DNA of 64,000 nucleotides from an uncultured Gammaproteobacteria bacterium (GTDB taxonomy: Bacteria; Patescibacteriota; Microgenomatia; UBA8517), in NCBI GenBank assembly GCA_964431555.1, contig CAYSJW010000023.1, positions 33,368-97,367 on the forward strand, read 5' to 3'. Shown here piece by piece: positions 1,499-16,152 of the stretch (within the stretch, counting starts at the first letter, position 1; each line of letters starts with the position of its first letter). A program made the translations under genes and the position numbers. The notes beneath the pieces are model-generated. The model made no database searches, was not told the origin of the DNA, and saw only the letters and a list, made by a program, of their open reading frames with translations.

Positions 1499-1800
1499 AA
1501 AAGATAATTATCACTTAAAACCAACGATACACAGACATTTATTTTTAGCTTGCACAATCATTTATGCATAACTTCTGAGATAAAAAGGCAAGGATGAGGA
1601 AGAGATTTTGTTCTGACATTTGAATAAAACCTCTTTTGATAAAATTAAAAGATGGAAATTAAAAGTTAAAACCAAACCAGATGTTAAAAGCGCTACCTTC
1701 ATTTTGCTTAACATCTCCGAATCTGAATATTTTGCAAAATTTGTTAATCTATTCAATAACCGCTATTGCTACATTCAATTTACATCAACCAAATACCTAA

Positions 1801-1946
1801 CTCCTATATCTTATTCCTATTTCCTATTTCCTATTTCCTATTTCATACTTCCTATTTCTCATTTCTCACAACTCACCACCCACTACTCACAACCCGCAAC
1901 CCACTACCCACCACTCACTTCTCACAACTCATAACTCACTCTTTCT
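1801..1946. repeat. G-free pyrimidine/CA-rich tandem tract: about 5 copies of TCCTATTT followed by degenerate CACAAC/CCACTAC units. It contains one G in 146 nt. It is module S of the composite intergenic repeat family.
   Basis: Direct reading. Related tracts occur at 9723-9775 and 11328-11390. Confidence 0.8.
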
Positions 1947-1955
1947 GAAAAAACC

Positions 1956-1993
1956 CATTGTTGGAGACTACTCAACACCCAGTGTTGAGAATT
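1956..1993. repeat. Module P of the repeat family: cccattgttgga...ctcaacac-cca-gtgttgag-aatt (8-bp stems, 3-nt loop).
   Basis: The same hairpin occurs at 3338-3356, 5472-5490, 9791-9809, 11190-11208 and 11404-11422. Stems are conserved and the loop varies (cca/ctg/atg/ccg). Confidence 0.8.
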
Positions 1994-2018
1994 GTTGAAA
2001 ATTTTATTTAATTACCAT

Positions 2019-2714
2019 CTAAAAAATTTTACTAATTACAAGAGTATTTTTTTCTGCTGAAAATGAAGGCATAACCATAAAACCCGTAAGCATTTGTTCA
2101 GGAATTCCCATATTTAATAAATCCGCTTTGTATTTTTCAATCTGTGACTCTTTTCTACCTTTTCCTATCTCTAGTATCAAATACCTCCCATCCGGCCCAA
2201 TTCCGACAACATCTAATATGTCATTATTTGATAAACTTACTTCAAAAAATACTGCTGGTTTTGGTTGTGTATTTTCAACTTCAAGAGGATAAAATATCCC
2301 CCTCAACACTTCCCAATTAGCCACTAAAAACTTTATAACCTTCTGGTAGGGTTTTTCCTGTTGTGAATGAGCTTGTTCTTTCAATCTTTGATTAACAGTC
2401 AAGTTTTTTTCAATTCTCACTCTTTGCCAATCTTCTAAATCTGACGGGGGAGAATAATTCAAATTTTTCTCAATAAGAATCCGCCATTCTCCTTCTGCAG
2501 CTGTACCAAATTGATAGTCTATTCCAATTCTTTCATCTCTTCCTTTTGGCCTTCCATTTTCATCAAGACCACTTGTTATTTTATAACCTCGCAATTTTTC
2601 CACTATCTCCTTAATTTCGCGTTCATGCTGAACTTTCCATTCTTCAACTTCACTAGAAGCTTTTCCTATCATCCACAACTTTAAAAACTTTGGTACCTCG
2701 TTTGTTTCATCCAT
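2019..2714 (-). CDS. Hypothetical protein. The C-terminus has a weak PD-(D/E)xK-like D...ExxK arrangement (ILDVVGIGPDGRYLILEIGKG).
   Basis: Complete 231-aa ORF flanked by repeat copies. No firm family assignment. Confidence 0.45.
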   Translation of the reverse strand: MDETNEVPKFLKLWMIGKASSEVEEWKVQHEREIKEIVEKLRGYKITSGLDENGRPKGRDERIGIDYQFGTAAEGEWRILIEKNLNYSPPSDLEDWQRVRIEKNLTVNQRLKEQAHSQQEKPYQKVIKFLVANWEVLRGIFYPLEVENTQPKPAVFFEVSLSNNDILDVVGIGPDGRYLILEIGKGRKESQIEKYKADLLNMGIPEQMLTGFMVMPSFSAEKNTLVISKIF

Positions 2715-2859
2715 AACTGTTTAGAAAATCAACTATGGTTAATTTTCCAAAACCCTACTATAATTTGCTCTCATTTAAATATCAAATCGTTCCTTAATTT
2801 TTTAGATATCTTAGTATAAAATTAAAAAACCTAATATTGTAAGAAGATGCGCCATTATC

Positions 2860-3192
2860 ATGCCAACTTTAAAAGAAGGATTTTCAAATTCAATAGAATT
2901 TTTTAGAACTGTATCAAGTCTCAGCACTCACCTTCCTCTTCCTTTCGGAGGAGAAAGTCTCGCCGAAACAGACAAAAGTGGAAAACCTATTCCGCCTGAA
3001 AATAGAAAATATATGACCATCGTAGAAGAGACCCTTTTTTACCTTATTTCCATCGGAGTCTCCCCAGCTCTTTTTCCCATAATTTTCAATAACCCGGAAA
3101 AAGCTTCAGGCTTTGTTAGGCAATTTACAGGAATTGACGGGGAAAAAGTTTATTTTGAAAAATTAAGGTCCAGAATTAAAAAATCTAAGTAA
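2860..3192 (+). CDS. Hypothetical protein.
   Basis: 110-aa ORF with no recognisable motif. Confidence 0.35.
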   Translation: MPTLKEGFSNSIEFFRTVSSLSTHLPLPFGGESLAETDKSGKPIPPENRKYMTIVEETLFYLISIGVSPALFPIIFNNPEKASGFVRQFTGIDGEKVYFEKLRSRIKKSK

Positions 3193-3330
3193 TCTTATTT
3201 TAGCCCATTAAAATTCTGAAAGTTTAAGCAAGGCCTTTTTCACCAGTTAAAAAGAAGAATTCATAGGGGGTGAAAATCACCCCCCTTATTGGTTAAATAA
3301 TTTTAAAATTTGAAAAATATCCCAATGTTT

Positions 3331-3477
3331 GAACCTACTCAACACCTGGTGTTGAGAATTCACTAAATTTAATTCTTAATTCTCAAATAAACAAACCAGT
3401 AGCGAAACAACTTTGCAACAATAATTTACGAAAAAAAAGGGAGGGGTGTAATATCAGTTCACCCGACAGGTGTGATA
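3331..3477. repeat. Composite intergenic repeat copy. It comprises hairpin module P, the 78-bp AT-rich core module Q (cactaaatttaattcttaattctcaaataaacaaaccagtagcgaaacaactttgcaacaataatttacgaaaaaa) and module R (gaggggtgtaatatcagttcacccgacaggtgtgata).
   Basis: About 97% identical to 11186-11327 over about 145 bp. Confidence 0.85.
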
Positions 3478-3601
3478 GTGTGATATTAGATATTATTAAA
3501 TGTTTTGTAATCTTTTGGTTAGCTTATACATTTGGAGTGTTAATAAAAACTCAAGAAAAACTCAAGATATTTCGATATTTTTATTTTAAAATTGAAGTTA
3601 C

Positions 3602-3811
3602 ATGAGATCCAAAAAATTTAAAATTAAAATTTTAGATATACCAGAGGTTTATACTTTAAATGATAAAGTTAGTAAACTTTCAAGTGTTTCCATATTTGAG
3701 GGGTATAACCATGAATGTGACTGTGCTTGTCCGAATGAACATAGTGGAAATATTATAACTGAACCTTATACTAAAATAAAAATATCAACAGTAAATCTTC
3801 ATAAAAAATAA
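3602..3811 (+). CDS. Candidate RiPP precursor peptide (69 aa). It has a K-rich leader and a core carrying HECDCACPNEH followed by a Cys-free Thr/Ile/Lys-rich tail.
   Basis: Small ORF 72 nt upstream of, and co-directional with, a radical-SAM enzyme. Three Cys within 5 residues. Confidence 0.5.
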   Translation: MRSKKFKIKILDIPEVYTLNDKVSKLSSVSIFEGYNHECDCACPNEHSGNIITEPYTKIKISTVNLHKK

Positions 3812-3883
3812 ATTTAAATAATTCAAGTGAAAAAAATAGTCCTAACCGAAATCTACGATTACTATTTTGGATTTTTCTAAAAC

Positions 3884-5449
3884 ATGATTAAGAAAAAAGG
3901 GTTTAATAAAAAAAATCATAATAAATCCTCACAATATTTTTTGTATCCTAATATTTTTACTATCAGACAACTAGATGGTTATTCAAATATAAATGGGGAT
4001 CTACATCCCATTTGGGGAAAACGTTTTGCAATTTATCACCCAATAAAATCCAACATCACATGTTTAAAAAATTCAGCCTGGGAAGTTTTTGATCTACTTA
4101 AAAAAAATTATCATAAAATTCAAGACATGCTGAACGCTAATAATGAACTGACTACCCATAAAATTAAAGAAATTATAAATAATTTTAAATCCAGAATGAT
4201 TGTTTTAGAAAATCAAAAAGGATTAAAAGTAAAAATTATACCCGATTTTAGTACCAATGCCGGGGTTTATTTACAAATTACAGAATATTGTAATTTTCAT
4301 TGTCCAGGTTGTTCTGCAGGATTGGATAGATATCAACCTGATAGATTACCGGAAACCATGAATGAAAATAACCTAGAAGAGCTTTTTCAAAATATTATAG
4401 AATCTGCATCAAATTTAGGATTTAAAAAACTCATTATAAAATGGGCTGGTGGCGAGCCGTTACTACCAACTCCATTTAAGTTAATTCGAAAAGGTCAGCC
4501 AATAATTAAAAGGTTACAAAAGCAATACTCTAAAATTAAAATCTACCAATCAATTTTGACAAATGGATCATTCCTGAAACCCGAATTAATTTCTGAGATA
4601 AAAAACTGGAATGTTCATCTTGCAGTAAGCTTATGGGGGATAGGAGAAGATAATTATAAAGCTAGAGGAGTTAAAAAGGTAAGTGGGTATGACATAATTG
4701 AGGGTATAAGATTACTACACAACGCTGGAATAAAATATAACATTAATCACGTAGTTACTCCAGTAAATTCTGAAAAATTTGGTAATTTTATTCGTGCTAT
4801 TTGGGATATACAAAGCAATGATTTTATAGGAAAAGACTGGATTTGGAAAAATGGAAAAAAACCTATTCCTCTAAATTTAACTTTTTTCAGACCACAAACT
4901 GAAAGTCAAATAAAAAGTCTTAGAAACAATGGTTATCAAAAAATGTTAAACGGTATAAGGAAAGGGTTTGAAGTAATACTAGAACTTATTAAAAAAGGGG
5001 TTCAAATACCTTCTTTAAGAAGAATAGATTACTTACAACTCTTCTCAGTTATTCCTGCGCCATGCGGAAGCGGTTTTAATTATTTGGTTGTAGGACCAAA
5101 AGGAATAACCTCTTGCATCCAAGGTCTTTTAAACACAAATAATTTTGACAGTATTAAAGCAAAAAAAGTAAATTTATTTAAAACTGTCAATAAAGAATAT
5201 AAAAAAACTAGTAAATTATTTGGACCCAATATCTCTTACTTAAGTAAAAACGACACAATCAATCAAATCTTGATGTTACACGGAGGATCCGGTTGTCCTC
5301 GAGTAGCAAGTTTAGAAAATAATGGTAATTTTGGATACGCGGCTGAAATATCAAAAATTTACGAAAAAATCATTGAAGAAATACTATCACTGGAAACAAT
5401 GAGACTTTTACATCTGAAAAAACATCATCCTTCTCACCTAAAGATGTAG
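3884..5449 (+). CDS. Radical SAM enzyme with a C-terminal auxiliary Cys cluster (SPASM/twitch-like). Probable peptide-modifying maturase. The about 130-aa N-terminal extension is a possible precursor-recognition domain.
   Basis: CNFHCPGC (CxxxCxxC) follows ...LQITEY. GGEP motif (WAGGEPLL). C-terminal Cys residues lie in PAPCGSG...ITSC...GGSGCP. Confidence 0.75.
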   Translation: MIKKKGFNKKNHNKSSQYFLYPNIFTIRQLDGYSNINGDLHPIWGKRFAIYHPIKSNITCLKNSAWEVFDLLKKNYHKIQDMLNANNELTTHKIKEIINNFKSRMIVLENQKGLKVKIIPDFSTNAGVYLQITEYCNFHCPGCSAGLDRYQPDRLPETMNENNLEELFQNIIESASNLGFKKLIIKWAGGEPLLPTPFKLIRKGQPIIKRLQKQYSKIKIYQSILTNGSFLKPELISEIKNWNVHLAVSLWGIGEDNYKARGVKKVSGYDIIEGIRLLHNAGIKYNINHVVTPVNSEKFGNFIRAIWDIQSNDFIGKDWIWKNGKKPIPLNLTFFRPQTESQIKSLRNNGYQKMLNGIRKGFEVILELIKKGVQIPSLRRIDYLQLFSVIPAPCGSGFNYLVVGPKGITSCIQGLLNTNNFDSIKAKKVNLFKTVNKEYKKTSKLFGPNISYLSKNDTINQILMLHGGSGCPRVASLENNGNFGYAAEISKIYEKIIEEILSLETMRLLHLKKHHPSHLKM

Positions 5450-5462
5450 TCACACAGAAAAA

Positions 5463-5500
5463 TCAAACCTACTCAACACATGGTGTTGAAATTTTTGAGA
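5463..5500. repeat. Solo module P hairpin (ctcaacac-atg-gtgttgaa) followed by a T-rich run. It sits between the convergent rSAM gene and the 5517-6146 gene and could act as a bidirectional terminator.
   Basis: Hairpin plus atttttgagaattttttg directly after the rSAM stop codon. Confidence 0.55.
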
Positions 5501-5516
5501 ATTTTTTGAGAGGAAA

Positions 5517-6146
5517 TTAGTATTTAAATTTAAAACTTCTCGCAACATTTTCAAAAATTTCTTTATTCTCCTCCCATTTACTAGTTGGCGTATTCCCGGA
5601 AATAACGAAGTATTTATCTGCCTTAGCAACAACAACTATAAAAATAGTGAAATTAACTTCTTGCTGAGTCAAAGTTAACTCAACAATCTTTGCTTTTTGA
5701 TCATCAATTACATCGTCTTGGCTGTTAATAACCTTGGTGCTTGCAATAGTTTGTTTTAACTGCAGATTTAAATCATCAACAATTTTGTCTAAGCTTTTCC
5801 CTTGAGTTTTATCAAATGAAACCGAAATATAACTTTTAAAGTTTATTTTCTGAGCAGCAGGATCATTAGCATGAGTCTCACCAACGTTTGTTATTGTTAA
5901 AAGGCTTCCAGGAAGTTGATTAGCTGTTGACCAACCTTCAGGCACCATTATCGAAAAATCTTCTGATTCGTGAATTTGCTCAGGTAATTTTTGAACTCTC
6001 TGCTGCTCTGGAGTTGGTAAAGTATTTAAGCTTTGAACACTCCTTTTAGTCAAAGAAAAATAGCCAAGAACTAAAACCCCAATCACTATTACAACGCCAA
6101 GAAGTATAAAAGAAAGTGCAAAACCTGAATTATTTTTTCGTATCAT
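5517..6146 (-). CDS. Hypothetical N-terminally membrane-anchored protein.
   Basis: 209 aa. N-terminal TM (GFALSFILLGVVIVIGVLVLGYF), remainder hydrophilic. Confidence 0.5.
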   Translation of the reverse strand: MIRKNNSGFALSFILLGVVIVIGVLVLGYFSLTKRSVQSLNTLPTPEQQRVQKLPEQIHESEDFSIMVPEGWSTANQLPGSLLTITNVGETHANDPAAQKINFKSYISVSFDKTQGKSLDKIVDDLNLQLKQTIASTKVINSQDDVIDDQKAKIVELTLTQQEVNFTIFIVVVAKADKYFVISGNTPTSKWEENKEIFENVARSFKFKY

Positions 6147-6151
6147 AATTT

Positions 6152-7816
6152 TCAGGGATATATTATTTCACCTTTTAGACAATTCGGTTTGAACGCACAA
6201 ATTTCATAAGTTGCCACATAATTGGAAAGAGATTGGGGGAGATCCCACTGAAAACCCCTATCTTGATCAACGAAATGCAAACTTTTCTCTGTCAGCTCAA
6301 CCTCTGAACCATTGCTCACAACCTTCATTTCAGCCGGTAAAGAAAGCTTTCTATTTGTATTGATCGTTATTTTGGAAGAAGTCGCTGATATTTTCAAAAT
6401 TTTAAAATCGGGTAATTTTGATTCATGGCCTGTCACAAATTCTGTCTTGGTTTGAACAGGAAGAGATGATTTTCCGCCATCCAAGACTTTCCCCGTATAA
6501 GTCCAAATTTGACATTCCATATCCTTCTCTTCTGCTGGGTGGCAAACCTGCTGAGCCCCGAATAATCTCCTTGTCTTATTGTCAAAACGCAAGTTTATGG
6601 CATCGAAATCTGTTAATTTATCCGGGCTGGGAATTAGCTGTTTCTTAAGTTTAGCCTTCACAGGATCATAAATTACAAAAAACCTATCTCTTTCCTCTCC
6701 CTGAGCAAATTCTTTATAAGGCTCTGTATAAATTCCATAAATATACCCATTTCGTGAATCAACGCCAAAAATGGACATGCCATCCCTATCTTGTAAAATT
6801 TTCCAACTCCCTCCATCAAGATCAGCCATCCCTAGCGTTTTTCTCTCTCTGATATTAGCAACTCCACCTCTATAAATAGGTGGCTCTCTAAAAGTTGAAT
6901 AGCGCACATAGAGCCTGTTCCTCGGAATATCCAAGGTTATGAAAGGCCAAGTATTTTCATAGTCAGTTAAAGTAAGTCTAACCTCTTTGTAATCACTACC
7001 GTCTCCTTTGACTTTAGCCAACCATATATCTTTATCATTATTAAATCCCGGAGTTCTTGCTCTTGGAAAAACAATATAGACTGTATCATTCTGGGAATCA
7101 TATTCCATATGTGGTATATAACTATTTACTTTTTCCCTTGTGTGAACAGTTTCTTTAATATTTCCACTTGCTAAATCAAGAAAGGCTGTGGCAATTTGAA
7201 AATCTTTGGTATAAGCAAAGATTAATTTTTGTCTTTGGATATCCAAAGCAACCGGCATAGTATCATCCACCGTCTCACTAGCAAAAATCTGTTTGTGAGT
7301 ACTCCAGTACTTCTCATCAGGTTCTTTACTTGCCATCATAACCCCGGAGATCACCTTGGTAGAGGCGTTAATGTCACTACCAATCCTATAAAAGTAATAG
7401 ATTGTGTCGTTTTCAGGATTGTATAAGATTCCGGGCCTTTGTTTATCTTCAGAAGAGGTGGTTTGTTTAACTTCTTCCCAACCATCGCCGTTAAAATCTG
7501 TCGTGGCTGTCCAAATTTGCCAGACGCCATTTTCGTCCATCTCTTTGTAAATGTAATAAATTTTCTCTCTAACTGTATCTAAAGCTATAGCAGGCTCATA
7601 CTTGGTATAAGGAGACGTTGTTTGTTGTTTCTGCAAAAACTCAGCCAAAGTATATTTGTAAGATTTGTCCGAAGAAGAAAGCTTTGTGATAAAAAGGTAA
7701 ACAATAAACCCAACTACTATAAATGAAGTAATCAAACTCAAAATGATTATCCGATTAAACCCACTCCCTGCAAATCTCCTGGGAAATTTCATAATCATTT
7801 TTATGATAACATCCAA
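6152..7816 (-). CDS. Hypothetical membrane-anchored or secreted protein with repetitive Y/W/G-rich beta-propeller-like segments.
   Basis: 554 aa. N-terminal TM, recurring DG(W/R)...YY(F/I)Y-type blocks. No catalytic motif. Confidence 0.5.
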   Translation of the reverse strand: MDVIIKMIMKFPRRFAGSGFNRIIILSLITSFIVVGFIVYLFITKLSSSDKSYKYTLAEFLQKQQTTSPYTKYEPAIALDTVREKIYYIYKEMDENGVWQIWTATTDFNGDGWEEVKQTTSSEDKQRPGILYNPENDTIYYFYRIGSDINASTKVISGVMMASKEPDEKYWSTHKQIFASETVDDTMPVALDIQRQKLIFAYTKDFQIATAFLDLASGNIKETVHTREKVNSYIPHMEYDSQNDTVYIVFPRARTPGFNNDKDIWLAKVKGDGSDYKEVRLTLTDYENTWPFITLDIPRNRLYVRYSTFREPPIYRGGVANIRERKTLGMADLDGGSWKILQDRDGMSIFGVDSRNGYIYGIYTEPYKEFAQGEERDRFFVIYDPVKAKLKKQLIPSPDKLTDFDAINLRFDNKTRRLFGAQQVCHPAEEKDMECQIWTYTGKVLDGGKSSLPVQTKTEFVTGHESKLPDFKILKISATSSKITINTNRKLSLPAEMKVVSNGSEVELTEKSLHFVDQDRGFQWDLPQSLSNYVATYEICAFKPNCLKGEIIYP

Positions 7817-7834
7817 AAAGAAAAATGGCTCAAG

Positions 7835-9025
7835 TTATTTTGGATAAATTCTATAAACCCAAAATGAACCCAGTAATCCCATCAAAGCCCACAGCGCAAT
7901 TGGAATCTGAACAAGATAGGAAAAAGCTAAAAGATTGGTATAGTGAATTTGATTAAAGAGAGAAGCTGCACCGTCAATAATTGATTTATAAACCAAGGCA
8001 ATTAAAAAATATTTAAAACTACCAGTTCTCACACTCATGAAGACCAAAAGTCCTGTAAACACTCCAATCAATAGGGCAGATATTCTTTCGATGATCGGCG
8101 GAAAAATTAATAATGATGATCCGCCAAAACCTTGTATAAAATCTGTCTGAAGATCTAACGGAAGGGCAGAAATTAAGTCCGGTTTTAAGGTTAAAGCTAA
8201 GGCAATCACAAATATCCAAAGACCAATAACTAAAGCTTCAACACCATTAAAGGTAATTGCGAAAGCGACGGCATTCTTTAGACTTGCATCTTTAAATTTT
8301 TCTCTAATATAAAGCCAAGAAAGACCGTTTTCCAAAATGCCCGTCCTTAAGCCAAAATATAAAAATGAAACAACTACTCCATAGGGGAGAACCATCTGGG
8401 TTACTCTAAGATCCATCACAAACTTAACGGTAAACATAAGAATCCAAACCAATATTGCAGCCCAAACATATTTCATTTCAAAACCAGCCTTTTTCCTCCA
8501 ATAAAAAAGGGCTATAAAAAAGACAGAAACTGTTAAAATCCCTCCAATAATCATAGCCGGGTTTGGTTTGAAATCTTCTAAATCCTCAAATTCCGGGTTT
8601 TTCTCACTTTGATATATTCCCAAAACCTCATCCGCTTTTAAGTTTAATGTCTCGCTTTTTCTTTGCTCTGGAGAAACTTTGTAATGAACCCCCTCGGGAG
8701 TTTCCAATTTCTCACGAATAACCGCCATCCTTCTTGCTCCCTGACTTTGGAAAAGAACAATTGTTCCTTCGCTTAGGTTATTTCTATCTTTGTCTATACA
8801 CTGATTAAAAAGTGCTCTTTCCCCATCTTCAATAAGCGGCTCCATTGATTTTCCTTTCACTGCAACTGGAACTATACACCTTAATTCTTTAAAAGCTGAA
8901 AAATCGGCACTTGCTTGTATAAAGGAAGAATGAGGTAAACTTACTAAAAATAAAAAAATTGAAAGGAAAATGGAATAAAAAAAGCCTCTCATTAATCTTA
9001 TAATAAGTCTGTATAATCTTATCAT
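7835..9025 (-). CDS. Signal peptidase I (S26/S24 fold)-like domain fused to a C-terminal about 8-TM membrane domain.
   Basis: N-terminal TM, then VKGKSMEPLIEDGE (box B, Ser nucleophile), EGTIVLF (box C-like) and RRMAVIREK. The C-terminal about 230 aa are polytopic. Confidence 0.55.
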   Translation of the reverse strand: MIRLYRLIIRLMRGFFYSIFLSIFLFLVSLPHSSFIQASADFSAFKELRCIVPVAVKGKSMEPLIEDGERALFNQCIDKDRNNLSEGTIVLFQSQGARRMAVIREKLETPEGVHYKVSPEQRKSETLNLKADEVLGIYQSEKNPEFEDLEDFKPNPAMIIGGILTVSVFFIALFYWRKKAGFEMKYVWAAILVWILMFTVKFVMDLRVTQMVLPYGVVVSFLYFGLRTGILENGLSWLYIREKFKDASLKNAVAFAITFNGVEALVIGLWIFVIALALTLKPDLISALPLDLQTDFIQGFGGSSLLIFPPIIERISALLIGVFTGLLVFMSVRTGSFKYFLIALVYKSIIDGAASLFNQIHYTNLLAFSYLVQIPIALWALMGLLGSFWVYRIYPK

Positions 9026-9096
9026 TCAATACCCTCACGTTTAAGAGAAGCAAGTAAATCAATATTTTTTACCAGACTAGAGTTTAAAATCAAAAG

Positions 9097-9312
9097 TTAT
9101 TTTAGAAGATGGTATTGATCAAGAATTTTTTCTGCCCAGAATAAACAATCTTTTTTAGTTTTTATCTTGGGGTACATTTTTTTAGATAAGTACTTATTAG
9201 CTTTTTCCAAAAATTTCAAACCAGTCTCTTTTGATCCACGGGCTAAATAGAAAGCCGCTCGATAAAGATTAGCTATAGTATCTGATCGGTAACTTTTTTT
9301 ATCTAATGCCAT
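9097..9312 (-). CDS. Hypothetical small protein (71 aa).
   Basis: Overlaps the upstream ORF by 10 nt, suggesting an operon. Basic and helical. Confidence 0.4.
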   Translation of the reverse strand: MALDKKSYRSDTIANLYRAAFYLARGSKETGLKFLEKANKYLSKKMYPKIKTKKDCLFWAEKILDQYHLLK

Positions 9313-9641
9313 AACTTTCGAAAATAATTTTTAACAATTTCTATGAACTTTTCTCTTCTTTTTTGATCCAAGATTTCTAAACTATCGTTTCCTAATCTTG
9401 GTCTAAGATTTAAAACAGCAGTAGTATCAATAAGTTTCTTCTTTAAATCAATTCCACCACCCCAAATATCGTCTTGCCTACTTCCTTTTTTCAAAAGCAG
9501 TTTTTCTGCATCGGCATGAAGACCGCTTCCAACAAATATCCACTTATTTTCCAAATCAATTGTTAATTTAAAATAATTTCCAAATTGTTTTCGCAACCTT
9601 TCTATTTCCTGCGGCGTTAAAACCTTATCAATAAACTCCAT
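9303..9641 (-). CDS. Hypothetical protein (112 aa).
   Basis: Complete ORF with no recognised motif. Confidence 0.45.
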   Translation of the reverse strand: MEFIDKVLTPQEIERLRKQFGNYFKLTIDLENKWIFVGSGLHADAEKLLLKKGSRQDDIWGGGIDLKKKLIDTTAVLNLRPRLGNDSLEILDQKRREKFIEIVKNYFRKLWH

Positions 9642-9676
9642 CCCTTATATTTTATCATCAAGTTGTAAAAAATAGG

Positions 9677-9809
9677 TGGGAGGTGTTATAACAGTTCACC
9701 CGACGCGTGTGATATGACACTTACTTCTCACAAATCACAACTTATTACTAACCACCAATTCTTAACAAGATAACCCATTGTTGGAATTTACTCAAAACCC
9801 GGTGTTGGG
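9677..9809. repeat. Diverged composite repeat copy. Order is R-like module (gggaggtgttataacagttcacccgacgcgtgtgata), then a G-poor CA tract, then a P hairpin (ctcaaaac-ccg-gtgttggg).
   Basis: Direct comparison with the other copies. Confidence 0.75.
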
Positions 9810-9889
9810 AATTATATTGGGGTATATAACATAAACTTATTTTACTCTCATTCCTAAATTTAATATCCTCTTACCTAAATATAGCAGAA

Positions 9890-10954
9890 TTGATAAGATA
9901 TAACCTAATGAGTACGGGGGGAGAACCAATAGTTGAACAACCTCCACCTTCAACTCCAGAAAGAAATACTCAAGAAGTTTTCGACCCTGTAAATGAGTGG
10001 AAAAGAATAGAAGATACTGTCGCACTTGAGATAACCGAAGGGAGAACGAGTGGCAACTTTGATGATAAGATTAAACTCCGAAATAGACTGATAAGTGAAT
10101 TGGCCAAAAAATTTGTACCTACAGTGGTAGAAAATGAAAGGGAATTGTTCGAAAGGCTAAGTGCGGTTGATAGAGCTAATTGGGGTCTTGAGGAAATCCA
10201 ACGGTTAAATAGCCAATTGCATCCAGAGTTTTATATTCATGAACTAATTGACTTGAGGACGCTAGCGGAACTTATTGGCGTAGGAAATTACTATCACTCT
10301 AAAATGTCCTATTGGAAAAAAGAGGGTCTAATCAACAAGACATGGGTAGCAATAGATACGGTAGATGCAGTGTGCGTAACTTCCGGTCTGCTGGCACTTG
10401 CAAAGAAAGAGGGAATTCAGCTTGGTAAAAAAGTGGTAGATTTGGGCGGTGGAGATGGTACTTGGGGCTTTGTATTGTGGAAACTAGGTTTCAATGTAAC
10501 CTTAATAGAACGAGACCCAACTCTTATTCAACAACTCCAGTTTGAAAAAGGGAAATTGGAGAAGATACTTGAAGTAAAAATATGGCCCTTACAAACTATA
10601 AATGGCGAGTTTTCCACCGACGATGCTAAAAATACTCCTCAAATACGAATGGCTTTGCGTAAAGCGGATGTAATGGTAAGTTATCCCTGGCCTAATGAAG
10701 TGCTAGACAGAATGAAATTGTTTAGTCAGTATGGGAAAAACAACGCGCTTCTCGTAATGTATGGGGGCAGTCCGAATGGATTTTCAACCAATACTGGGGA
10801 CATAACCAACTGTGGATTGGAAGTTGTCGGAAGTGAAATAAATGAAAAATTAAAAAGCAGTGGTGGTGAGCTACAATGGGTACGTGGCTACCCAGCCCCA
10901 CAGTCTGGAGTAAGTTGGGTTGTGTTGAGAAAAGCCACTACTAGTGATAGATAA
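9890..10954 (+). CDS. Class I SAM-dependent methyltransferase-like protein with an N-terminal extra domain.
   Basis: Motif I VVDLGGGDGTWGFVL, then an acidic residue at the end of the beta2-equivalent (LIERD). No DPPY/NPPY DNA-MTase motif. Confidence 0.55.
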   Translation: MIRYNLMSTGGEPIVEQPPPSTPERNTQEVFDPVNEWKRIEDTVALEITEGRTSGNFDDKIKLRNRLISELAKKFVPTVVENERELFERLSAVDRANWGLEEIQRLNSQLHPEFYIHELIDLRTLAELIGVGNYYHSKMSYWKKEGLINKTWVAIDTVDAVCVTSGLLALAKKEGIQLGKKVVDLGGGDGTWGFVLWKLGFNVTLIERDPTLIQQLQFEKGKLEKILEVKIWPLQTINGEFSTDDAKNTPQIRMALRKADVMVSYPWPNEVLDRMKLFSQYGKNNALLVMYGGSPNGFSTNTGDITNCGLEVVGSEINEKLKSSGGELQWVRGYPAPQSGVSWVVLRKATTSDR

Positions 10955-11185
10955 TCACCCACACCCTACCCGGATTTTCTACCCCCAATCTACATAGAAA
11001 CAAAAAAATCCACGGGATAAATTTATTAATTCCTACTCAATGATTTGAACTAGTATACCTTAAAATTACATTTGTCTTTACCAAAACCAAAACTCTATAT
11101 GTTTATAAAAGGAGACACTCAAGTTTGAATTATTTTAATATTTTTTCTATAAAGAAAGGTTATCTAGATAATATAATAAATATAA

Positions 11186-11428
11186 CCTACTCAACACCTG
11201 GTGTTGAGAATTCACTAAATTTAATTCTTAATTCTCAAATAAACAAACCAGTAGCGAAACAACTTTGCAACAATAATTTACGAAAAAAGTGAGGGGTGTC
11301 ATATCAGTTCACCCGACGGGTGTGATATTTCTCTCACAACCCACTACCCAACACTCACTTCCCACAACTCACTCTTTCTGAAAAAACCTATTGTTCAAAC
11401 CTACTCAACACCCGGTGTTGAGAATTGT
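11186..11428. repeat. Longest composite repeat copy, in the order P hairpin, Q core, R hairpin, S G-free CA tract, second P hairpin.
   Basis: Q+R are near-identical to 3361-3477. S+P match 1921-1993. Confidence 0.85.
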
Positions 11429-11594
11429 TTCCATATTCTCAAACCGCAATTTACCATTAAACATAAAGATAATAACAAGAATAGAAAAAATTAAAAATAA
11501 TTAACAATTTAATCCACATCTTCGGTGGTGTCGTCCAAATTCTAACTTTCGCACACTAACTTTTTTACATCTAATCTAAAAAGAAAATTTACTA

Positions 11595-11644
11595 TTGACA
11601 TTGATTGTTGGTTTGATAATATAGACCTATACCTAGGGTATAGG
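11595..11644 (+). promoter_or_regulatory. Sigma-70-type promoter (TTGACA 11595-11600, 16-nt spacer, TAATAT 11617-11622) overlapped at its downstream end by an 8-3-8 inverted repeat (cctatacc-tag-ggtatagg, 11626-11644). The inverted repeat is a candidate CsoR operator.
   Basis: Hexamers and palindrome read directly. The palindrome has the ATACC...GGTAT character of known CsoR boxes and lies 34 nt upstream of csoR. Confidence 0.55.
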
Positions 11645-11677
11645 TATCAAAAAATAAAATTTCTGATTTTTAAAATC

Positions 11678-11950
11678 ATGACAACTCAAAAAGAAAAAAC
11701 TCTCATTAATTTCAAAAAAGCCCAAAGCCTATTGTCCAAAATTATTAAAATGCTGGAAGCCGATGAATATTGCATTGATATTATGCAGCAAAATTTGGCA
11801 GTGATAGGACTCTTAAAATCTGCCCACCAGATGCTCATGGAAAATCACCTCAATACCTGCTTTAAAACGGCAATGGCAACAAAAAAAGAAAAGAAGAAAC
11901 AAGAGATGGTTCAAGAAATATTAAAAGTTACAAAACTATTTAATAAATAA
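11678..11950 (+). CDS. csoR: CsoR/RcnR-family metal-sensing transcriptional repressor.
   Basis: 90 aa. Cys in ADEYCID, His in SAHQML, Cys in LNTCF, matching the x-Cys...His...Cys metal-ligand spacing of the CsoR family. Confidence 0.75.
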   Translation: MTTQKEKTLINFKKAQSLLSKIIKMLEADEYCIDIMQQNLAVIGLLKSAHQMLMENHLNTCFKTAMATKKEKKKQEMVQEILKVTKLFNK

Positions 11951-11959
11951 CCAAATTAC

Positions 11960-13486
11960 ATGTCTAAAAAAACTAAAGAATATACCCTTTACGTCAAAGG
12001 AATGCATTGTGCATCCTGTGAGATCTTGATTGAGAAAAGGTTACTAGAACTAAAAAACATAAAATTCGTCAAACCTTCAACAGCTAAAGGTGAAGTATTG
12101 ATTAAATACAACAACAAAAAACCTAGTCTTCACAAACTAAATGAAATTTTTAAAAAAGAAGGATATATCTTTTCCGAAGATCAAAAAGATGCAATAAGCA
12201 GCTTTAAGCCGAAAGAATTTTTTACTAATCTTGGCATAGGATTATTAATTATTATCGGTTTCATCGGATTAAATAGCTTAGGATTATCAGGATTGATAAA
12301 TGTGGGTTCAAAATCGTCTTTGCCAATGTTTTTTTTGTTCGGACTTCTTGCTGGGATTTCTAGCTGCGCAGCTTTAGTCGGCGGATTAATCCTTTCAATG
12401 TCAAAACATTGGAGTGAACTATATTCAGATTCCGAACCCCTATGGAAAAAAATTCAGCCTAATTTAATTTTTAACACAGGTAGATTTATTTCCTATGGAG
12501 TTTTTGGTGCAATATTAGGAGCAATAGGTAGCAAAATAAACTTTTCACTTAAATTTGGACCAATCTTGGTTGTTGTCATTTCTGTAATAATGATCTTTCT
12601 AGCTTTTCAAATGTTTGGACTTAAGATATTTAGAAAATTTCAATTTACAATGCCAAAATTTATAACAAAATTTATTACCAATGAGTCCAATTTCAAGGGC
12701 CGCTATATGCCATTTTTTATGGGTGCATTTACCTTCTTTTTGCCTTGCGGCTTTACGATAACCACTCAAAGTTTAGCCTTAATTTCCGGAAGTGCAATTC
12801 AGGGAGGACTAATTATGTTTTCATTCGCTTTGGGAACTTTACCAATGCTTTTACTTATAGGATTATCTAGCACCAATTTCCTACAAAAGCCGCATTTATC
12901 TGAAAGATTTTTTAAAATAGCCGGTATTTTGGTTCTATTTTTCGCTCTCTACAATATTAATTCTCAATTAAATGTCTTGGGGATCTCAAGCCTTAGCGAC
13001 TTAAGTTTCAATTCAACTAAATTTTACGATATTAATAAAAATGTTTCATCTAAAAACGAATACGGGCTGGCTCCAATTGTTAATGGCAAACAAATCCTGA
13101 AAATGAACGCTTTCTCTTATGGTTATTCGCCGGATTATTTTAAAGTAAGAACCGGAGTACCAGTAAGATGGGAAATTACAGATAAAGGAACCAGCGGTTG
13201 TACTAATGCTGTCATTTCAAAAAGTTTATTTGAAGGTGAAATTCCCTTGACCCCAGGTCAAACTAGTATAAAAGAATTTACTCCCGAAAAACCAGGTAAA
13301 TACAAATTTAGTTGTTGGATGGGAATGATTTCCGGGATTATAGAAGTTGTGGATAAGGATAATCTAACATCTCAAAGTAACATTTCAAATGATAACGGTG
13401 ATCTATTTGTCCCATCAAAGGTGGAGAATTCAAACGGAAGTTGTAGTTGTGGTACAAATGTGAAGTGCGGTTGTGGCGGAAGATAA
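11960..13486 (+). CDS. Copper-handling fusion protein: an N-terminal HMA domain, a polytopic DsbD/CcdA-like membrane core with two intramembrane Cys, and a C-terminal cupredoxin-like domain with a Cys-rich tail.
   Basis: GMHCASCE (MxCxxC). TM Cys in GISSCAAL and FLPCGFT. C-terminal ...GKYKFSCWMGMISGIIEV and ...SNGSCSCGTNVKCGCGGR. Confidence 0.6.
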   Translation: MSKKTKEYTLYVKGMHCASCEILIEKRLLELKNIKFVKPSTAKGEVLIKYNNKKPSLHKLNEIFKKEGYIFSEDQKDAISSFKPKEFFTNLGIGLLIIIGFIGLNSLGLSGLINVGSKSSLPMFFLFGLLAGISSCAALVGGLILSMSKHWSELYSDSEPLWKKIQPNLIFNTGRFISYGVFGAILGAIGSKINFSLKFGPILVVVISVIMIFLAFQMFGLKIFRKFQFTMPKFITKFITNESNFKGRYMPFFMGAFTFFLPCGFTITTQSLALISGSAIQGGLIMFSFALGTLPMLLLIGLSSTNFLQKPHLSERFFKIAGILVLFFALYNINSQLNVLGISSLSDLSFNSTKFYDINKNVSSKNEYGLAPIVNGKQILKMNAFSYGYSPDYFKVRTGVPVRWEITDKGTSGCTNAVISKSLFEGEIPLTPGQTSIKEFTPEKPGKYKFSCWMGMISGIIEVVDKDNLTSQSNISNDNGDLFVPSKVENSNGSCSCGTNVKCGCGGR

Positions 13487-13515
13487 AATTTTTCATTTAT
13501 ATAAACCGCAAAACA

Positions 13516-13659
13516 ATGAAAGAATTATACCAATGTTCAATTTGTAAGCTATGGTATAAAGAAAAAAAGTGGGCTAAAAAATGTAAAGCATGGTGCAAAA
13601 AGCATAAAAGTTGTAATTTGGAAATAACAAGACATGCAAAATCTAATAAAAACCCATGA
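13516..13659 (+). CDS. Small Cys-rich, Lys/Trp-rich protein (47 aa) with a CxxC-x12-CxxxC-x5-C pattern. Putative metal-binding (TRASH/zinc-ribbon-like).
   Basis: [34 protein letters not shown]... Its stop overlaps the copA start (ATGA). Confidence 0.45.
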
Positions 13660-15962: not shown

Positions 15963-16081
15963 TCATAAAAAAATTATTCCAATCATTCGGAACATCTGAA
16001 ATAACAAAAAATTTTTTTATTTGATTCTACAATTCATTTTCTAAAAGAATTACGAAGCCAATGTTTATATAACTTTCAAAG

Positions 16082-16152
16082 TCGGGGTGGGCAGAGTCGA
16101 ACTGCCGCCGGACGCACCCCATGCGCCCATTCTACCGTTAAACTACACCCCG
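16082..16152 (-). tRNA. tRNA-Pro (anticodon GGG).
   Basis: Hand-folded. Acceptor CGGGGTG/CACCCCG (7 bp). Anticodon stem GGCGC/GCGTC with loop AUGGGGU, giving anticodon GGG with G37. T arm GGCAG-UUCGACU-CUGCC. Discriminator A. CCA not encoded. Confidence 0.75.

What the first reader, a model, noticed from the sequence alone, without database searches (positions are those of the whole stretch)
1801..11428. Dense family of composite intergenic repeats (hairpin P, 78-bp core Q, hairpin R, G-free tract S) confined to the first 12 kb
Six copies or fragments of one repeat family occupy nearly every intergenic gap between 1.8 and 11.4 kb, at 1801-1993, 3331-3477, 5463-5500, 9677-9809 and 11186-11428. 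None occur in the remaining 52 kb.

- Module P is a hairpin with perfectly conserved 8-bp stems (ctcaacac/gtgttgag) and a variable 3-nt loop (cca, ctg, atg, ccg). Conserved stems with a free loop argue for selection on structure.
- Module Q is 78 bp and identical at 3361-3438 and 11213-11290.
- Module R carries a second GC hairpin (cacccgac.ggtg).
- Module S is an almost G-free CA/pyrimidine tract.

The longest copy reads P-Q-R-S-P, that is, a unit flanked by direct P repeats. Candidate identities are:
- a REP/MITE-like mobile element;
- a small structured ncRNA gene family;
- recombination or terminator cassettes marking a mosaic accessory region.
Basis: seen in the sequence. Interest (0 to 1): 0.65.

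Follow-up and report, generated by a model that had tools for sequence, protein, structure and literature searches.

The report
Mosaic palindrome repeats in CPR island
A 10-kb strain-variable gene island in an uncultured ultra-small (Patescibacteria) bacterium is stitched together with pieces of one ~250-bp non-coding unit, whose 19-bp palindrome core also caps unrelated repeats in related bacteria; this looks like a new but fairly ordinary kind of selfish or recombination-prone intergenic repeat.

Summary
The repeat family is real and local. Palindrome P (CTCAACAC-NNN-GTGTTGAG) occurs 6 times between 1971 and 11422, against 0.12 expected by chance, and nowhere else in 90 kb of the source contig.

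- **Unit structure.** One complete unit, P-Q-R-S-P, lies at 11178-11429. The other loci are partial copies: P-Q-R, P alone, R-S-P and S-P.
- **Genomic setting.** The repeats sit in a lineage-specific segment. A relative that keeps the flanking anchors (membrane protein 71% identical, pyrF 86%) has 1.9 kb of other genes there and no P.
- **Strain differences.** A ~90%-identical strain carries an extra IS plus an NYN gene beside P5a, and different heptamer counts in S.
- **P outside this genome.** Only P is found beyond this lineage. In other low-GC, Microgenomates-like contigs the same 9-1-9 palindrome ends unrelated dispersed non-coding repeats, and homology between contexts breaks at its edge.
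- **No structural selection.** Fourteen distinct P copies show no compensatory change, so sequence is conserved, not structure.
- **Negative results.** No Rfam family matches. No transposase or recombinase lies nearby. The features of attC, dif, classic REP, MITE and TIGR arrays are not met.

Best reading (about 0.45): a BIME/BOX-like mosaic repeat built on a REP-like, sequence-recognised palindrome that marks junctions in an accessory island and may act as a weak terminator. Function is not shown.

The parts
1801..1996 (+). Copy 1: S-P. Heptamer arrays (TCCTATT)n at 1802-1865 and (CTCACAA)n at 1865-1939, the conserved S tail CTCTTTCTGAAAAAACCCATTGTT, then P1 at 1971-1989 (loop CCA) followed by AATTGTT.
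   Evidence: (family D1, 83% identical to copy 5). Other strains have one heptamer fewer here. P1 lies 30 nt past the stop of the minus-strand 231-aa gene.
3326..3485 (+). Copy 2: P-Q-R. P2 at 3338-3356 (loop CTG), Q at 3357-3438, R at 3439-3477. It ends in an 8-bp tandem duplication, GTGTGATA GTGTGATA (3470-3485), at the junction with the cargo genes.
   Evidence: families D3, D5; 105 nt identical to copy 5.
3602..5449 (+). Cargo between copy 2 (P-Q-R) and copy 3 (S tail plus P): a 69-aa Cys-rich peptide gene and a 521-aa radical SAM/SPASM-like maturase.
   Evidence: The arrangement P-Q-R | genes | S-tail-P is read directly from the sequence.
5460..5494 (+). Copy 3: a short S tail (AGAAAAATCAAACCTA) plus P3 at 5472-5490 (loop ATG, last stem base G>A). 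It is the only hairpin in the 67-nt gap between two convergent genes.
   Evidence: (family D4).
9667..9813 (+). Copy 4: (Q tail)-R-S-P, the most diverged copy (about 72% identical to copy 5). R at 9670-9714, S at 9715-9790, P4 at 9791-9809 with a decayed stem. It lies in a divergent promoter region.
   Evidence: (families D2, D5).
11178..11442 (+). Copy 5: the complete unit P-Q-R-S-P. P5a at 11190-11208, Q at 11209-11288, R at 11289-11327, S at 11328-11403, P5b at 11404-11422. An extra left-arm-like half-site, ATTCTCAA, lies at 11435-11442.
   Evidence: The orthologous unit in strain L011 has the same order.
2302..2309 (+). Solo exact half-site CTCAACAC inside the 231-aa gene.
   Evidence: Both solo exact half-sites in the window fall inside the island. 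This is weak evidence: half-site density is only about 2-fold above the rest of the window.
10922..10929 (+). Solo exact half-site GTGTTGAG near the 3' end of the 354-aa methyltransferase-like gene. It is conserved in L011.
1499..16080 (.). Lineage-specific variable segment between the conserved anchors: the 148-aa membrane-protein gene next to recA on the left, tRNA-Pro/pyrF on the right. The repeats occupy its first 10 kb; a copper-resistance operon fills the rest.
   Evidence: Relative L121 has only a methyltransferase and a PEP-utilizer gene (1.9 kb) between the same anchors, and no P.

Best explanation
The feature is a BIME/BOX-like mosaic of non-coding modules inside a lineage-specific accessory island of a Microgenomates (Patescibacteria/CPR) chromosome.

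**The basic unit.** It is about 250 bp and reads P-Q-R-S-P. The other four loci are pieces of this unit, left where gene blocks lie between or within units. The clearest case is P-Q-R | peptide + radical-SAM genes | S-tail-P.

**The functionally constrained core is P**, a 19-bp 9-1-9 palindrome (CTCAACACC-N-GGTGTTGAG).

**Shown:**
- P is conserved as sequence, without covariation.
- In other related genomes P forms one end of unrelated dispersed non-coding repeats.
- Homology between different genomic contexts starts or stops at its edge.
- P sits mostly at gene 3' ends.
- Q, R and S are private to this locus.
- S is a slippage-prone heptamer minisatellite.

**Inferred:**
- P is a REP-like element recognised sequence-specifically by an enzyme encoded elsewhere. 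Candidates are a Y1/HUH REP-associated transposase acting on the hairpin, or another recombinase acting on the duplex palindrome. P therefore gets copied and joined to neighbouring DNA.
- The Q-R-S pieces then spread within the island by local duplication and recombination between units as gene blocks were gained.
- As a by-product, the modest hairpins (-8 to -10 kcal/mol) between convergent genes probably act as weak bidirectional terminators or insulators.
For: - **P is far above chance and strictly local.** 6 copies against 0.12 expected. None in the other roughly 80 kb of the 90 kb of contig surveyed.
- **Modular partial copies in constant order and orientation**.
- **The island is lineage-specific.** L121 keeps the 148-aa membrane-protein gene (71% identical), pyrF (86%) and Band_7 (93%) but has 1.9 kb of other genes between the anchors and no P. 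RecA-anchored loci of 10 further relatives have neither P nor the island genes.
- **Strain-level change at P.** L011 has an rve-type IS plus an NYN gene inserted up to 4 nt from P5a, one extra heptamer in S and a 12-nt deletion in Q, while both P copies are unchanged.
- **Cross-lineage P.**
  - L020a, L020b and L135 share P plus 100-228 nt in three different gene contexts: M48 peptidase, tRNA-Glu and higBA.
  - L007/L133 and L008 share P plus at least 95 nt, with different genes on the left.
  - The sequences attached to P in the different families show no similarity.
  - These low-GC hits nearly all have the extended C-N-G centre; the chance-like high-GC hits do not.
- **No covariation.** Zero compensatory changes in 14 distinct copies, and all variants break or wobble the stem.
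- **Public contigs break at these repeats**.
- **IS fragments accumulate next to P**.
- **Position at gene ends.** P1 and P3 lie 23-30 nt from the stops of convergent genes.
Against: - No transposase, Y1/HUH protein or recombinase lies in the island or anywhere in 90 kb of contig.
- In this genome P is clustered, not dispersed as REPs are.
- No empty-site/filled-site pair, target-site duplication or circular junction was seen, so mobility of any module is not shown.
- The metagenome scan required GAGAA on one side and covers only part of the public data. It missed a JGI contig known to carry P. The distribution of P is therefore poorly sampled.
- The taxonomy of the other P-bearing contigs is inferred from GC content and gene content only (one search gave no names).
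- The terminator role rests on position and a weak hairpin. Only 2 of 6 P copies pass a simple terminator scan, and the region has no excess of terminator-like sites.
Confidence: 0.45

Rival explanations
1. **Non-mobile expression cassette duplicated locally.** Q-R carries a promoter and 5' leader. S is a G-poor 3' UTR or Rho-loading tract. P is a bidirectional terminator. The unit was copied inside the island together with genes by ordinary segmental duplication or homologous recombination. P resembles sequences in other genomes only because short terminator modules travel with horizontally transferred genes.
For: - Every P lies downstream of a plus-strand coding or non-coding unit. P1 and P3 also end minus-strand genes, at 23-30 nt from the stops.
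- The cargo between P-Q-R and S-tail-P is on the plus strand, as a promoter in Q-R would require.
- Sigma-70-like hexamers can be read in Q/R: TTACGA-N17-TAATAT in copy 2 and TTGTAA-N18-TATAAC in copy 4 (read).
- C-rich, G-poor tracts also precede P in L133 and L008.
- P3 and P5b pass the terminator scan.
- Q, R and S occur only locally.
Against: - Promoter-like sites are no more frequent than in shuffled sequence, and the scan did not call the Q/R plus-strand sites.
- The putative -10 and the spacer length differ between copies 2 and 5.
- The hairpin is weak and mostly lacks a U tract.
- A terminator should tolerate compensatory change, yet P keeps its exact sequence across at least four unrelated repeat families.
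- P4 sits in a divergent promoter region where no terminator is needed.
Confidence: 0.25
2. **P-delimited gene-cassette array.** P is the core site of a site-specific recombinase encoded elsewhere, in the manner of integrons or Xer-exploiting modules. Each P-to-P segment (1.4, 2.1, 4.3, 1.4 and 0.2 kb) is a cassette that can be excised and inserted at P.
For: - Segments bounded by P carry typical accessory cargo. In other lineages the genes beside P are a toxin-antitoxin pair, an NYN nuclease, an MerR/excisionase-type HTH protein, an M48 peptidase and a YkuD transpeptidase.
- In three independent comparisons the gene content differs on one side of P while the other side is conserved.
- P contains attC-like R-box heptamers, ACTCAAC and GTTGAGA (read).
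- An odd 7-bp centre flanked by 7-bp arms is compatible with a tyrosine-recombinase core site. This rests on established knowledge of the lambda att core and is an inference.
Against: - No recombinase lies in 90 kb.
- Cassettes are multi-gene and in both orientations.
- In L007 against L008 the variable gene has P on one side only.
- Homologues of the single-gene 'cassette' (the 354-aa protein) in another genome have no P nearby.
- P lacks L boxes, extrahelical bases and attC length, and does not resemble dif.
- The central base differs between sites, which would hinder tyrosine-recombinase strand exchange.
Confidence: 0.12
3. **Structured small RNA gene family.** P-Q-R or R-S-P is transcribed as a functional ncRNA, with P as its terminator.
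For: - The 253-nt unit folds better than shuffles (z = -5.4 on the plus strand, -4.2 on the minus strand).
- The R core is the best-conserved part between diverged copies, at 80-93% identity.
- Small hairpins are predicted in R.
Against: - The low folding energy comes mainly from the two palindromes pairing with each other.
- No Rfam family matches even at E <= 5.
- Only one pair per strand shows a double change among three sequences, and several pairs break.
- Copies are truncated at different module borders, which a functional RNA would not tolerate.
- S varies by whole heptamers between strains.
- No copies occur outside the island.
Confidence: 0.08
4. **Assembly artefact** (collapsed or chimeric repeat).
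For: Short-read contigs from three other samples end inside the repeats, at window positions 1837, 3361 and 11344.
Against: - Copies 1-4 and their flanks are 99.9% identical in an independent JGI contig.
- The full P-Q-R-S-P order is reproduced in a different strain and assembly, L011.
- Copies differ from one another (72-96% identity), as real paralogous repeats do.
Confidence: 0.02

Closest known systems
BIMEs (bacterial interspersed mosaic elements) built from REP palindromic units, Enterobacteria
   Same: Short extragenic palindromes are combined with other conserved non-palindromic motifs into mosaic units. Partial and composite forms exist. They lie at gene 3' ends and between convergent genes. 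They encode no protein.
   Different: - P has no GT[AG]G head.
- Successive P units are direct, not alternating.
- Copies are confined to one 10-kb island instead of being spread over the chromosome.
- No RAYT gene was seen.
- There is no sequence similarity.
BOX elements of Streptococcus pneumoniae (boxA-boxB(n)-boxC)
   Same: A modular non-coding repeat with a variable number of an internal module. Here that module is the heptamers of S. The end modules can pair with each other, and no transposase is encoded within the element.
   Different: BOX elements are dispersed (over 100 copies) and their modules are 45-59 nt. Here the ends are identical palindromes, the variable part is a 7-nt minisatellite and the copies are local.
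IS200/IS605-derived palindrome-associated transposable elements and REP/RAYT systems (Y1 HUH transposases)
   Same: Similar hairpins lie at both ends in direct orientation. There are no terminal inverted repeats and no target duplication. All copies are on one strand. A conserved hairpin is attached to a lineage-specific body.
   Different: No Y1 transposase was found. Element ends and a target tetranucleotide could not be defined. Only one complete unit exists.
Integron attC sites and CALIN cassette arrays
   Same: A repeated recombination-site-like palindrome separates blocks of accessory genes of unknown function. AAC/GTT-containing heptamers are present. IS elements sit nearby.
   Different: - P is 19 bp, not 57-141 bp.
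- It has no L boxes or extrahelical bases.
- Cassettes are multi-gene and in both orientations.
- There is no IntI gene.
Intrinsic (bidirectional) terminators
   Same: A hairpin lies 23-30 nt after convergent stop codons, with A-rich sequence on one side and T-rich on the other in some copies.
   Different: The stem is only 8-9 bp with 4-5 G-C pairs (-8 to -10 kcal/mol). The U tract is mostly absent or displaced. The sequence is conserved across lineages, which terminators normally are not.

Membership tests
REP / RAYT system | Short (20-40 nt) extragenic imperfect palindrome | tested here: met
   P is a 19-bp palindrome (26 nt with its conserved flanks). All 6 window copies are intergenic.
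REP / RAYT system | Tens to hundreds of copies dispersed over the chromosome | tested here: not met
   There are 6 copies in 9.6 kb and none in the other roughly 80 kb of the same contig. The whole genome was not available.
REP / RAYT system | Conserved GT[AG]G tetranucleotide at the 5' foot of the palindrome | tested here: not met
   The flanks are CCTA...AATT in the window and differ in the other lineages: AAAT, CTCT, ACCC, ATTA. GTAG appears only on the opposite strand, at the 3' foot.
REP / RAYT system | A RAYT (Y1 HUH transposase) gene, usually flanked by REPs | not testable with these tools
   None appears among the genes called in 90 kb. The rest of the genome could not be retrieved.
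MITE | Terminal inverted repeats plus a target-site duplication | tested here: not met
   The two ends of the complete unit are direct copies of the same palindrome. Beyond the 9-bp arms the flanks are not inverted repeats, and no duplication flanks any copy.
MITE | Copies inserted at many unrelated sites | tested here: inconclusive
   This is not seen for Q-R-S. P-capped repeats of another lineage do occur in three unrelated contexts.
IS200/IS605-type palindrome-associated element | Similar subterminal hairpins at both ends in direct orientation, one strand only, no TIR or TSD | tested here: met
   Copy 5, and copy 2 plus copy 3, have P at both ends. All copies have the same flank orientation.
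IS200/IS605-type palindrome-associated element | Insertion 3' of a fixed tetra- or pentanucleotide, and a cognate TnpA in the genome | not testable with these tools
   No empty site and no TnpA are available.
Integron attC / cassette array | A 57-141-bp site with R''-L''...L'-R' boxes and extrahelical bases | tested here: not met
   Only R-box-like heptamers are present (ACTCAAC, GTTGAGA), and they are 7 nt apart. No conserved extended imperfect palindrome surrounds P.
Integron attC / cassette array | intI integrase and attI nearby; cassettes mostly single ORFs in one orientation | tested here: not met
   No integrase lies in 90 kb. Segments hold 1-5 genes on both strands.
Xer dif / pdif modules | A 28-bp site of two 11-bp arms and a 6-bp spacer, with a conserved XerD arm | tested here: not met
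   P has 9-bp arms around a single central base and no resemblance to the XerD arm. Gene orientation does not flip here as it would at a terminus.
Known structured RNA family (Rfam) | Match to a covariance model, or covariation supporting a fold | tested here: not met
   There is no Rfam hit at gathering thresholds or at E <= 5. There is no covariation in P and essentially none in R-S.
Intrinsic terminator | Stable G+C-rich hairpin immediately followed by a U tract, at a gene 3' end | tested here: inconclusive
   The position fits for P1, P3 and P5a. Folding energy is only -8 to -10 kcal/mol. Two of the 6 P copies pass the scan, and the region shows no enrichment over shuffles.
TIGR array (Tas-associated tandem guide RNA array) | Tandem units of about 36 nt next to a Nop-domain Tas gene | tested here: not met
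   Repeat periods are 7, 14 and 21 nt. Units are kilobases apart. No Nop domain occurs in the island proteins. Family features were taken from PMC12045711.

The most novel reading that the evidence does not exclude
P is the core site of an undescribed cassette-capture system of CPR bacteria. A trans-encoded recombinase would use a minimal 19-bp palindrome, conserved across several Microgenomates lineages, to insert and shuffle small accessory gene blocks (RiPP genes, toxin-antitoxin pairs, nucleases) at chromosomal hot spots. That would make it a functional analogue of integrons or Xer-dependent modules in a phylum thought to be poor in mobile-DNA machinery.
Probability: 0.12. Interest if true: 0.8.

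Novelty: new member of a known kind. Interest (0 to 1): 0.4.

Why it matters
Patescibacteria have very small, streamlined genomes, and how they gain and reshuffle accessory genes is poorly understood. Genomic islands are reported to be common in them (PMC12455944), but no repeat or site has been tied to those islands.

A short palindrome shared between lineages sits at the borders of variable gene blocks and of dispersed non-coding repeats. This gives a concrete, searchable marker for such hot spots and a handle for finding the enzyme that acts on it.

If P is only a decaying selfish repeat or a terminator module, the finding is a useful annotation but biologically ordinary.

Tried and rejected
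- **Rfam.** Searches of the window, of the region at E <= 5, and of nine related loci gave nothing for the repeats. Three apparent 'P' hits in the metagenome scan are SAM-riboswitch aptamers, which is a coincidence.
- **Public sequence scans.**
  - P with its flanks against one genome per GTDB species: 0 hits.
  - P and R against viral contigs: 0 hits.
  - The full unit against phage genomes: no match.
- **RecA-anchored synteny** in 80 genomes. The nearest relatives (65-80% RecA identity) have neither P nor the island genes.
- **Homologues of the 354-aa single-gene 'cassette'** (47-55% identical). The two homologues whose contigs were fetched (53% and 47% identical) have no P in their neighbourhoods.
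- **P as an IS end.** The transposase fragment right of P in L010/L133 belongs to an IS630-like family. Its conserved left end starts about 215 nt from P, and relatives of that IS have no P. The IS in L011 has its own unrelated inverted repeats.
- **Similarity between the sequences attached to P in different lineages.** None exceeds what shuffled sequence gives.
- **tRNA-linked island with partial-tRNA att repeats.** No partial copy of tRNA-Pro occurs in the island.
- **An apparent strain-level 'cassette swap'** after the membrane-protein gene in L119 against L121. This turned out to be a frameshift in one gene, with 99.5% DNA identity.
- **Extended hairpin around P, alternative pairing with an upstream GTTG-like segment, and a flanking ATTGTT direct repeat read as a target duplication.** None of these is conserved among copies.
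- **TIGR array, CRISPR-like solo repeat, parS/matS-like site, DGR.** All were rejected on spacing, length, missing partner genes or an odd-length centre.
- **Phage or defence origin of the island proteins.** There are no PHROG hits, and the PADLOC hits are weak and generic.
- **G-free composition as a special signal.** Such runs are common in this window.

Full report
**1. What is there**

The palindrome P (CTCAACAC-N3-GTGTTGAG, up to 3 mismatches) occurs six times in the 64-kb window: at 1971, 3338, 5472, 9791, 11190 and 11404. Shuffled sequence gives 0.12 on average. The R core (CAGTTCACCCGAC-NN-GTGTGATA) occurs three times against 0 expected.

The copies are:
- 11178-11429: the complete unit P-Q-R-S-P.
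- 3326-3477: P-Q-R.
- 9667-9813: (Q tail)-R-S-P.
- 1801-1996: S-P.
- 5460-5494: a short S tail plus P.

All copies have the same flank orientation.

- Four of the six stems are perfect. P3 and P4 carry mismatches, and P4 no longer folds as the hairpin.
- The 'identical 78-bp Q' matches at 76 of 78 positions. It is embedded in a 105-nt block of exact identity that includes P.
- The 'loop' is C-N-G in 4 of the 6 window copies and in most copies from other lineages, so P is a 9-1-9 palindrome.
- S is a degenerate tandem heptamer array. G-free stretches as such are common in this window.

**2. Where it is**

The window is part of a 116-kb ENA metagenome contig. The same locus was assembled independently in JGI and Logan contigs at 99.8-100% identity, and those contigs tend to end inside the repeats.

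RecA is 77-80% identical to that of Patescibacteria MAGs and 67-68% to Levyibacteria and Daviesbacteria. The 148-aa membrane protein beside recA has relatives in Woesebacteria and Shapirobacteria. The organism is therefore a Microgenomates-group CPR bacterium.

I retrieved 90.3 kb of the contig (positions 14,836-105,169). It contains type IV pilus genes, miaA, an ABC transporter, HU, rny, recX and recA on one side. On the other side lie a copper operon, pyrF, the ribosomal protein operons, tuf/fus, rpoBC and ftsK. P, Q, R and S occur only between 1.8 and 11.4 kb of the window.

The genes between the repeats are:
- a 231-aa protein and a 110-aa protein without family assignment;
- a 69-aa Cys-rich peptide with a radical SAM/SPASM-like maturase;
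- a five-gene minus-strand block: PsbP-like, a 554-aa unknown, a signal-peptidase-like/YhfC fusion, a 71-aa protein and DUF5674;
- a 354-aa methyltransferase-like protein.

None is a transposase or recombinase. None has phage hits, and defence-family hits are weak and generic.

**3. The segment is lineage-specific and varies between strains**

A relative, L121, shares the left synteny (HU-rny-recX-recA-membrane protein, the last 71% identical). It also shares the right anchors: tRNA-Pro, pyrF at 86% and Band_7 at 93%. Between those anchors it has only a methyltransferase and a PEP-utilizer gene (1.9 kb) and no P. The window has 14.6 kb there. The tRNA-Pro gene is inverted between the two genomes.

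A second relative (64% identical membrane protein) has yet other genes after the membrane-protein gene and no P. Ten RecA-anchored loci of more distant relatives have neither P nor any island gene.

The one metagenome hit that is a true orthologue, L011 (about 90% identical), reproduces P-Q-R-S-P. Compared with the window it differs as follows:
- An rve-type IS and an NYN-domain gene lie between the methyltransferase-like gene and P5a, with the breakpoint 4 nt from P.
- The left flank of its P5a matches the left flank of window copy 2.
- S has one more heptamer.
- Q has a 12-nt deletion.
- Both P copies are unchanged.

Strains L002 and L003 have one TCCTATT unit fewer in S of copy 1.

**4. P outside this lineage**

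A scan of JGI metagenome contigs for CTCAACAC-N3-GTGTTGAGAA gave 19 loci:
- Three are SAM riboswitches.
- About eight are high-GC contigs with arbitrary loops and look like chance.
- The low-GC ones form a distinct class, nearly all with the extended C-N-G centre.

In that low-GC class P is the end module of other repeats:
- L020a, L020b and L014/L135 share P plus 100-228 nt. They lie next to an M48 peptidase gene, a tRNA-Glu gene with an MerR/excisionase-type HTH gene, and a higBA-type toxin-antitoxin pair, respectively.
- L007/L133 and L008 share P plus at least 95 nt. The gene on the left differs: a 174-aa unknown protein against a YkuD transpeptidase.
- L019 has P followed by a second strong hairpin between two genes.
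- In L006, P overlaps the 3' end of argF and may be a chance hit.

The sequences attached to P in the different families are unrelated. In L133 a truncated IS630-like transposase gene lies 215 nt right of P and about 4 kb from dnaA. The conserved end of that IS family does not include P.

P is therefore a short module shared between lineages, and homology between contexts begins or ends at its edge.

**5. Structure or sequence?**

An alignment of 15 P copies (14 distinct) shows 96% of cells paired but no pair with a change on both sides. The five departures break the pair or give G.U, and the shuffle control equals the observed value. The hairpin is modest, at -8 to -10 kcal/mol.

Alignment folds of R-S-P on either strand (three sequences) give one double change each and several broken pairs. 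The good z-scores of the whole unit come from the two palindromes pairing with each other.

There is thus no evidence for selection on RNA structure. What is conserved is the sequence of the palindrome. That fits a protein-recognised DNA site or hairpin, or recent copying.

In a census of perfect hairpins with stems of at least 8 bp in the window, the only ones with four or more G-C pairs are the four intact P copies, one canonical terminator at 3266-3284, and the palindrome upstream of the csoR-like gene.

**6. Position relative to genes**

- P1 lies 30 nt beyond the stop of the minus-strand 231-aa gene and downstream of the plus-strand membrane-protein gene.
- P3 is the only hairpin in the 67-nt gap between two convergent genes.
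- P2 and P5a follow plus-strand genes.
- P5b follows the non-coding R-S stretch.
- P4, the decayed copy, lies in a divergent promoter region.

In L020 and L135, P is likewise at gene or tRNA 3' ends. There it is followed on one strand by ATTTGATTTTTTC.

A simple scan calls P3 and P5b terminator-like. Neither terminator-like nor promoter-like sites are enriched in the region. A weak bidirectional terminator or insulator role is plausible but not shown.

**7. Explanation**

I favour, at about 0.45, a BIME/BOX-like mosaic repeat built around a REP-like palindrome. Under this reading:
- P is recognised sequence-specifically by an enzyme encoded elsewhere, and so becomes joined to different neighbouring DNA.
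- Q, R and S are private to this locus. They spread within the island by local duplication and recombination between units as gene blocks were gained. The clearest trace is P-Q-R | peptide + radical SAM genes | S-tail-P, with an 8-bp tandem duplication at the R/cargo junction.
- S evolves by slippage.

What is shown is the anatomy, the locality, the lineage specificity, the strain variation, the cross-lineage conservation of P at homology borders, and the lack of covariation. The existence and kind of the enzyme, any mobility, and the terminator role are all inferred.

The rivals are:
- a non-mobile promoter/3' UTR/terminator cassette duplicated locally (0.25);
- a P-delimited cassette array served by a site-specific recombinase (0.12);
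- an ncRNA family (0.08);
- an assembly artefact (0.02, contradicted).

**8. Comparison with known kinds**

The family works most like BIMEs and pneumococcal BOX elements: mosaic, modular and non-coding, found at gene ends, with a variable internal module.

It is not a member of any family tested:
- **REP:** no GTAG head and no dispersal, so membership fails.
- **MITE:** no terminal inverted repeats or target duplication, so membership fails.
- **attC:** length, L boxes and integrase are missing.
- **dif:** the architecture does not fit.
- **TIGR arrays:** period and Tas protein are missing (PMC12045711).
- **IS200/IS605-type elements:** the layout (hairpins at both ends, one strand, no TIR or TSD) is met, but the transposase and target rule could not be tested.

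Literature searches found reports that genomic islands are frequent in Patescibacteria (PMC12455944). They found no description of such a repeat.

**9. Verdict**

This is a real and well-delimited repeat family, a new example of mosaic intergenic repeats in a phylum where none is described. The shared palindrome is an interesting lead, but there is no evidence yet for a new mechanism. Interest is 0.4. The most novel reading, a CPR cassette-capture site, has a probability of about 0.12.

**Limits**

- The public scans are capped and partial. The metagenome collection missed a JGI contig known to carry P.
- The search pattern fixed one flank.
- The genomes are incomplete.
- No expression data were available.

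Noticed in passing
window 3602-5449: A 69-aa Cys-rich peptide gene (motif CDCACPNEH) is followed by a 521-aa radical SAM protein. Its best NCBIfam matches, all far below the curated cut-offs, include SPASM-type peptide maturases. Together they look like a RiPP precursor and its maturase. The pair sits exactly between P-Q-R and the next P.
   Followed up: partly
window 11595-11645: A good sigma-70-like promoter (TTGACA-N16-TAATAT, with TG) is followed at once by a perfect palindrome, ACCTATACC-CTAGG-GTATAGGT. Both lie upstream of a CsoR-family repressor gene, an HMA-DsbD-cupredoxin fusion and a copA-type ATPase. The palindrome is probably the CsoR operator.
   Followed up: no
window 3470-3485: There is an exact 8-bp tandem duplication, GTGTGATA GTGTGATA, at the point where copy 2 stops matching copy 5. 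It could be a slippage event or an excision footprint at the R/cargo junction.
   Followed up: no
window 16081-16152 and L121 6050-6123: tRNA-Pro(GGG) next to pyrF is on the opposite strand in the window compared with the closest syntenic relative. The variable segment has therefore also undergone an inversion. No partial tRNA copies were found in the island.
   Followed up: partly
L011 275-1226 and 1273-1950: A related strain carries an rve-type (IS481/IS3-like) insertion sequence with about 28-bp imperfect terminal inverted repeats, plus an NYN-domain gene. Both lie between the methyltransferase-like gene and P5a and are absent from the window.
   Followed up: partly
L131 1-65: The public ENA contig ERZ27245789 k141_210136 begins with Nextera/Illumina adapter sequence (…GTCTCGTGGGCTCGGAGATGTGTATAAGAGACAG). 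This is untrimmed adapter in a deposited assembly.
   Followed up: no
L005 8793-8881, L018 1834-1949, L023: The exact P sequence also occurs inside SAM-I riboswitch aptamers of unrelated organisms. This is a coincidental match and would contaminate any motif-only survey of P.
   Followed up: yes
window 7835-9025: A 396-aa membrane protein combines an S24/S26 signal-peptidase-like N-terminal part with a YhfC-type intramembrane metalloprotease domain, an unusual fusion.
   Followed up: no
window 2019-2714: The 231-aa protein has no Pfam, NCBIfam, PHROG, PADLOC or PDB match. By eye, its C-terminal part (DILDVVGIGPDGRYLILEIGKGRK) resembles the PD-(D/E)xK nuclease motif of NucS/DUF91-type proteins.
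   Followed up: partly
L133 5340-5730 and L008 960-1001: In other lineages P is also preceded by a C-rich, G-poor tract, as with S in the window. This hints that a pyrimidine-rich tract followed by P is a recurrent arrangement rather than a local accident.
   Followed up: no
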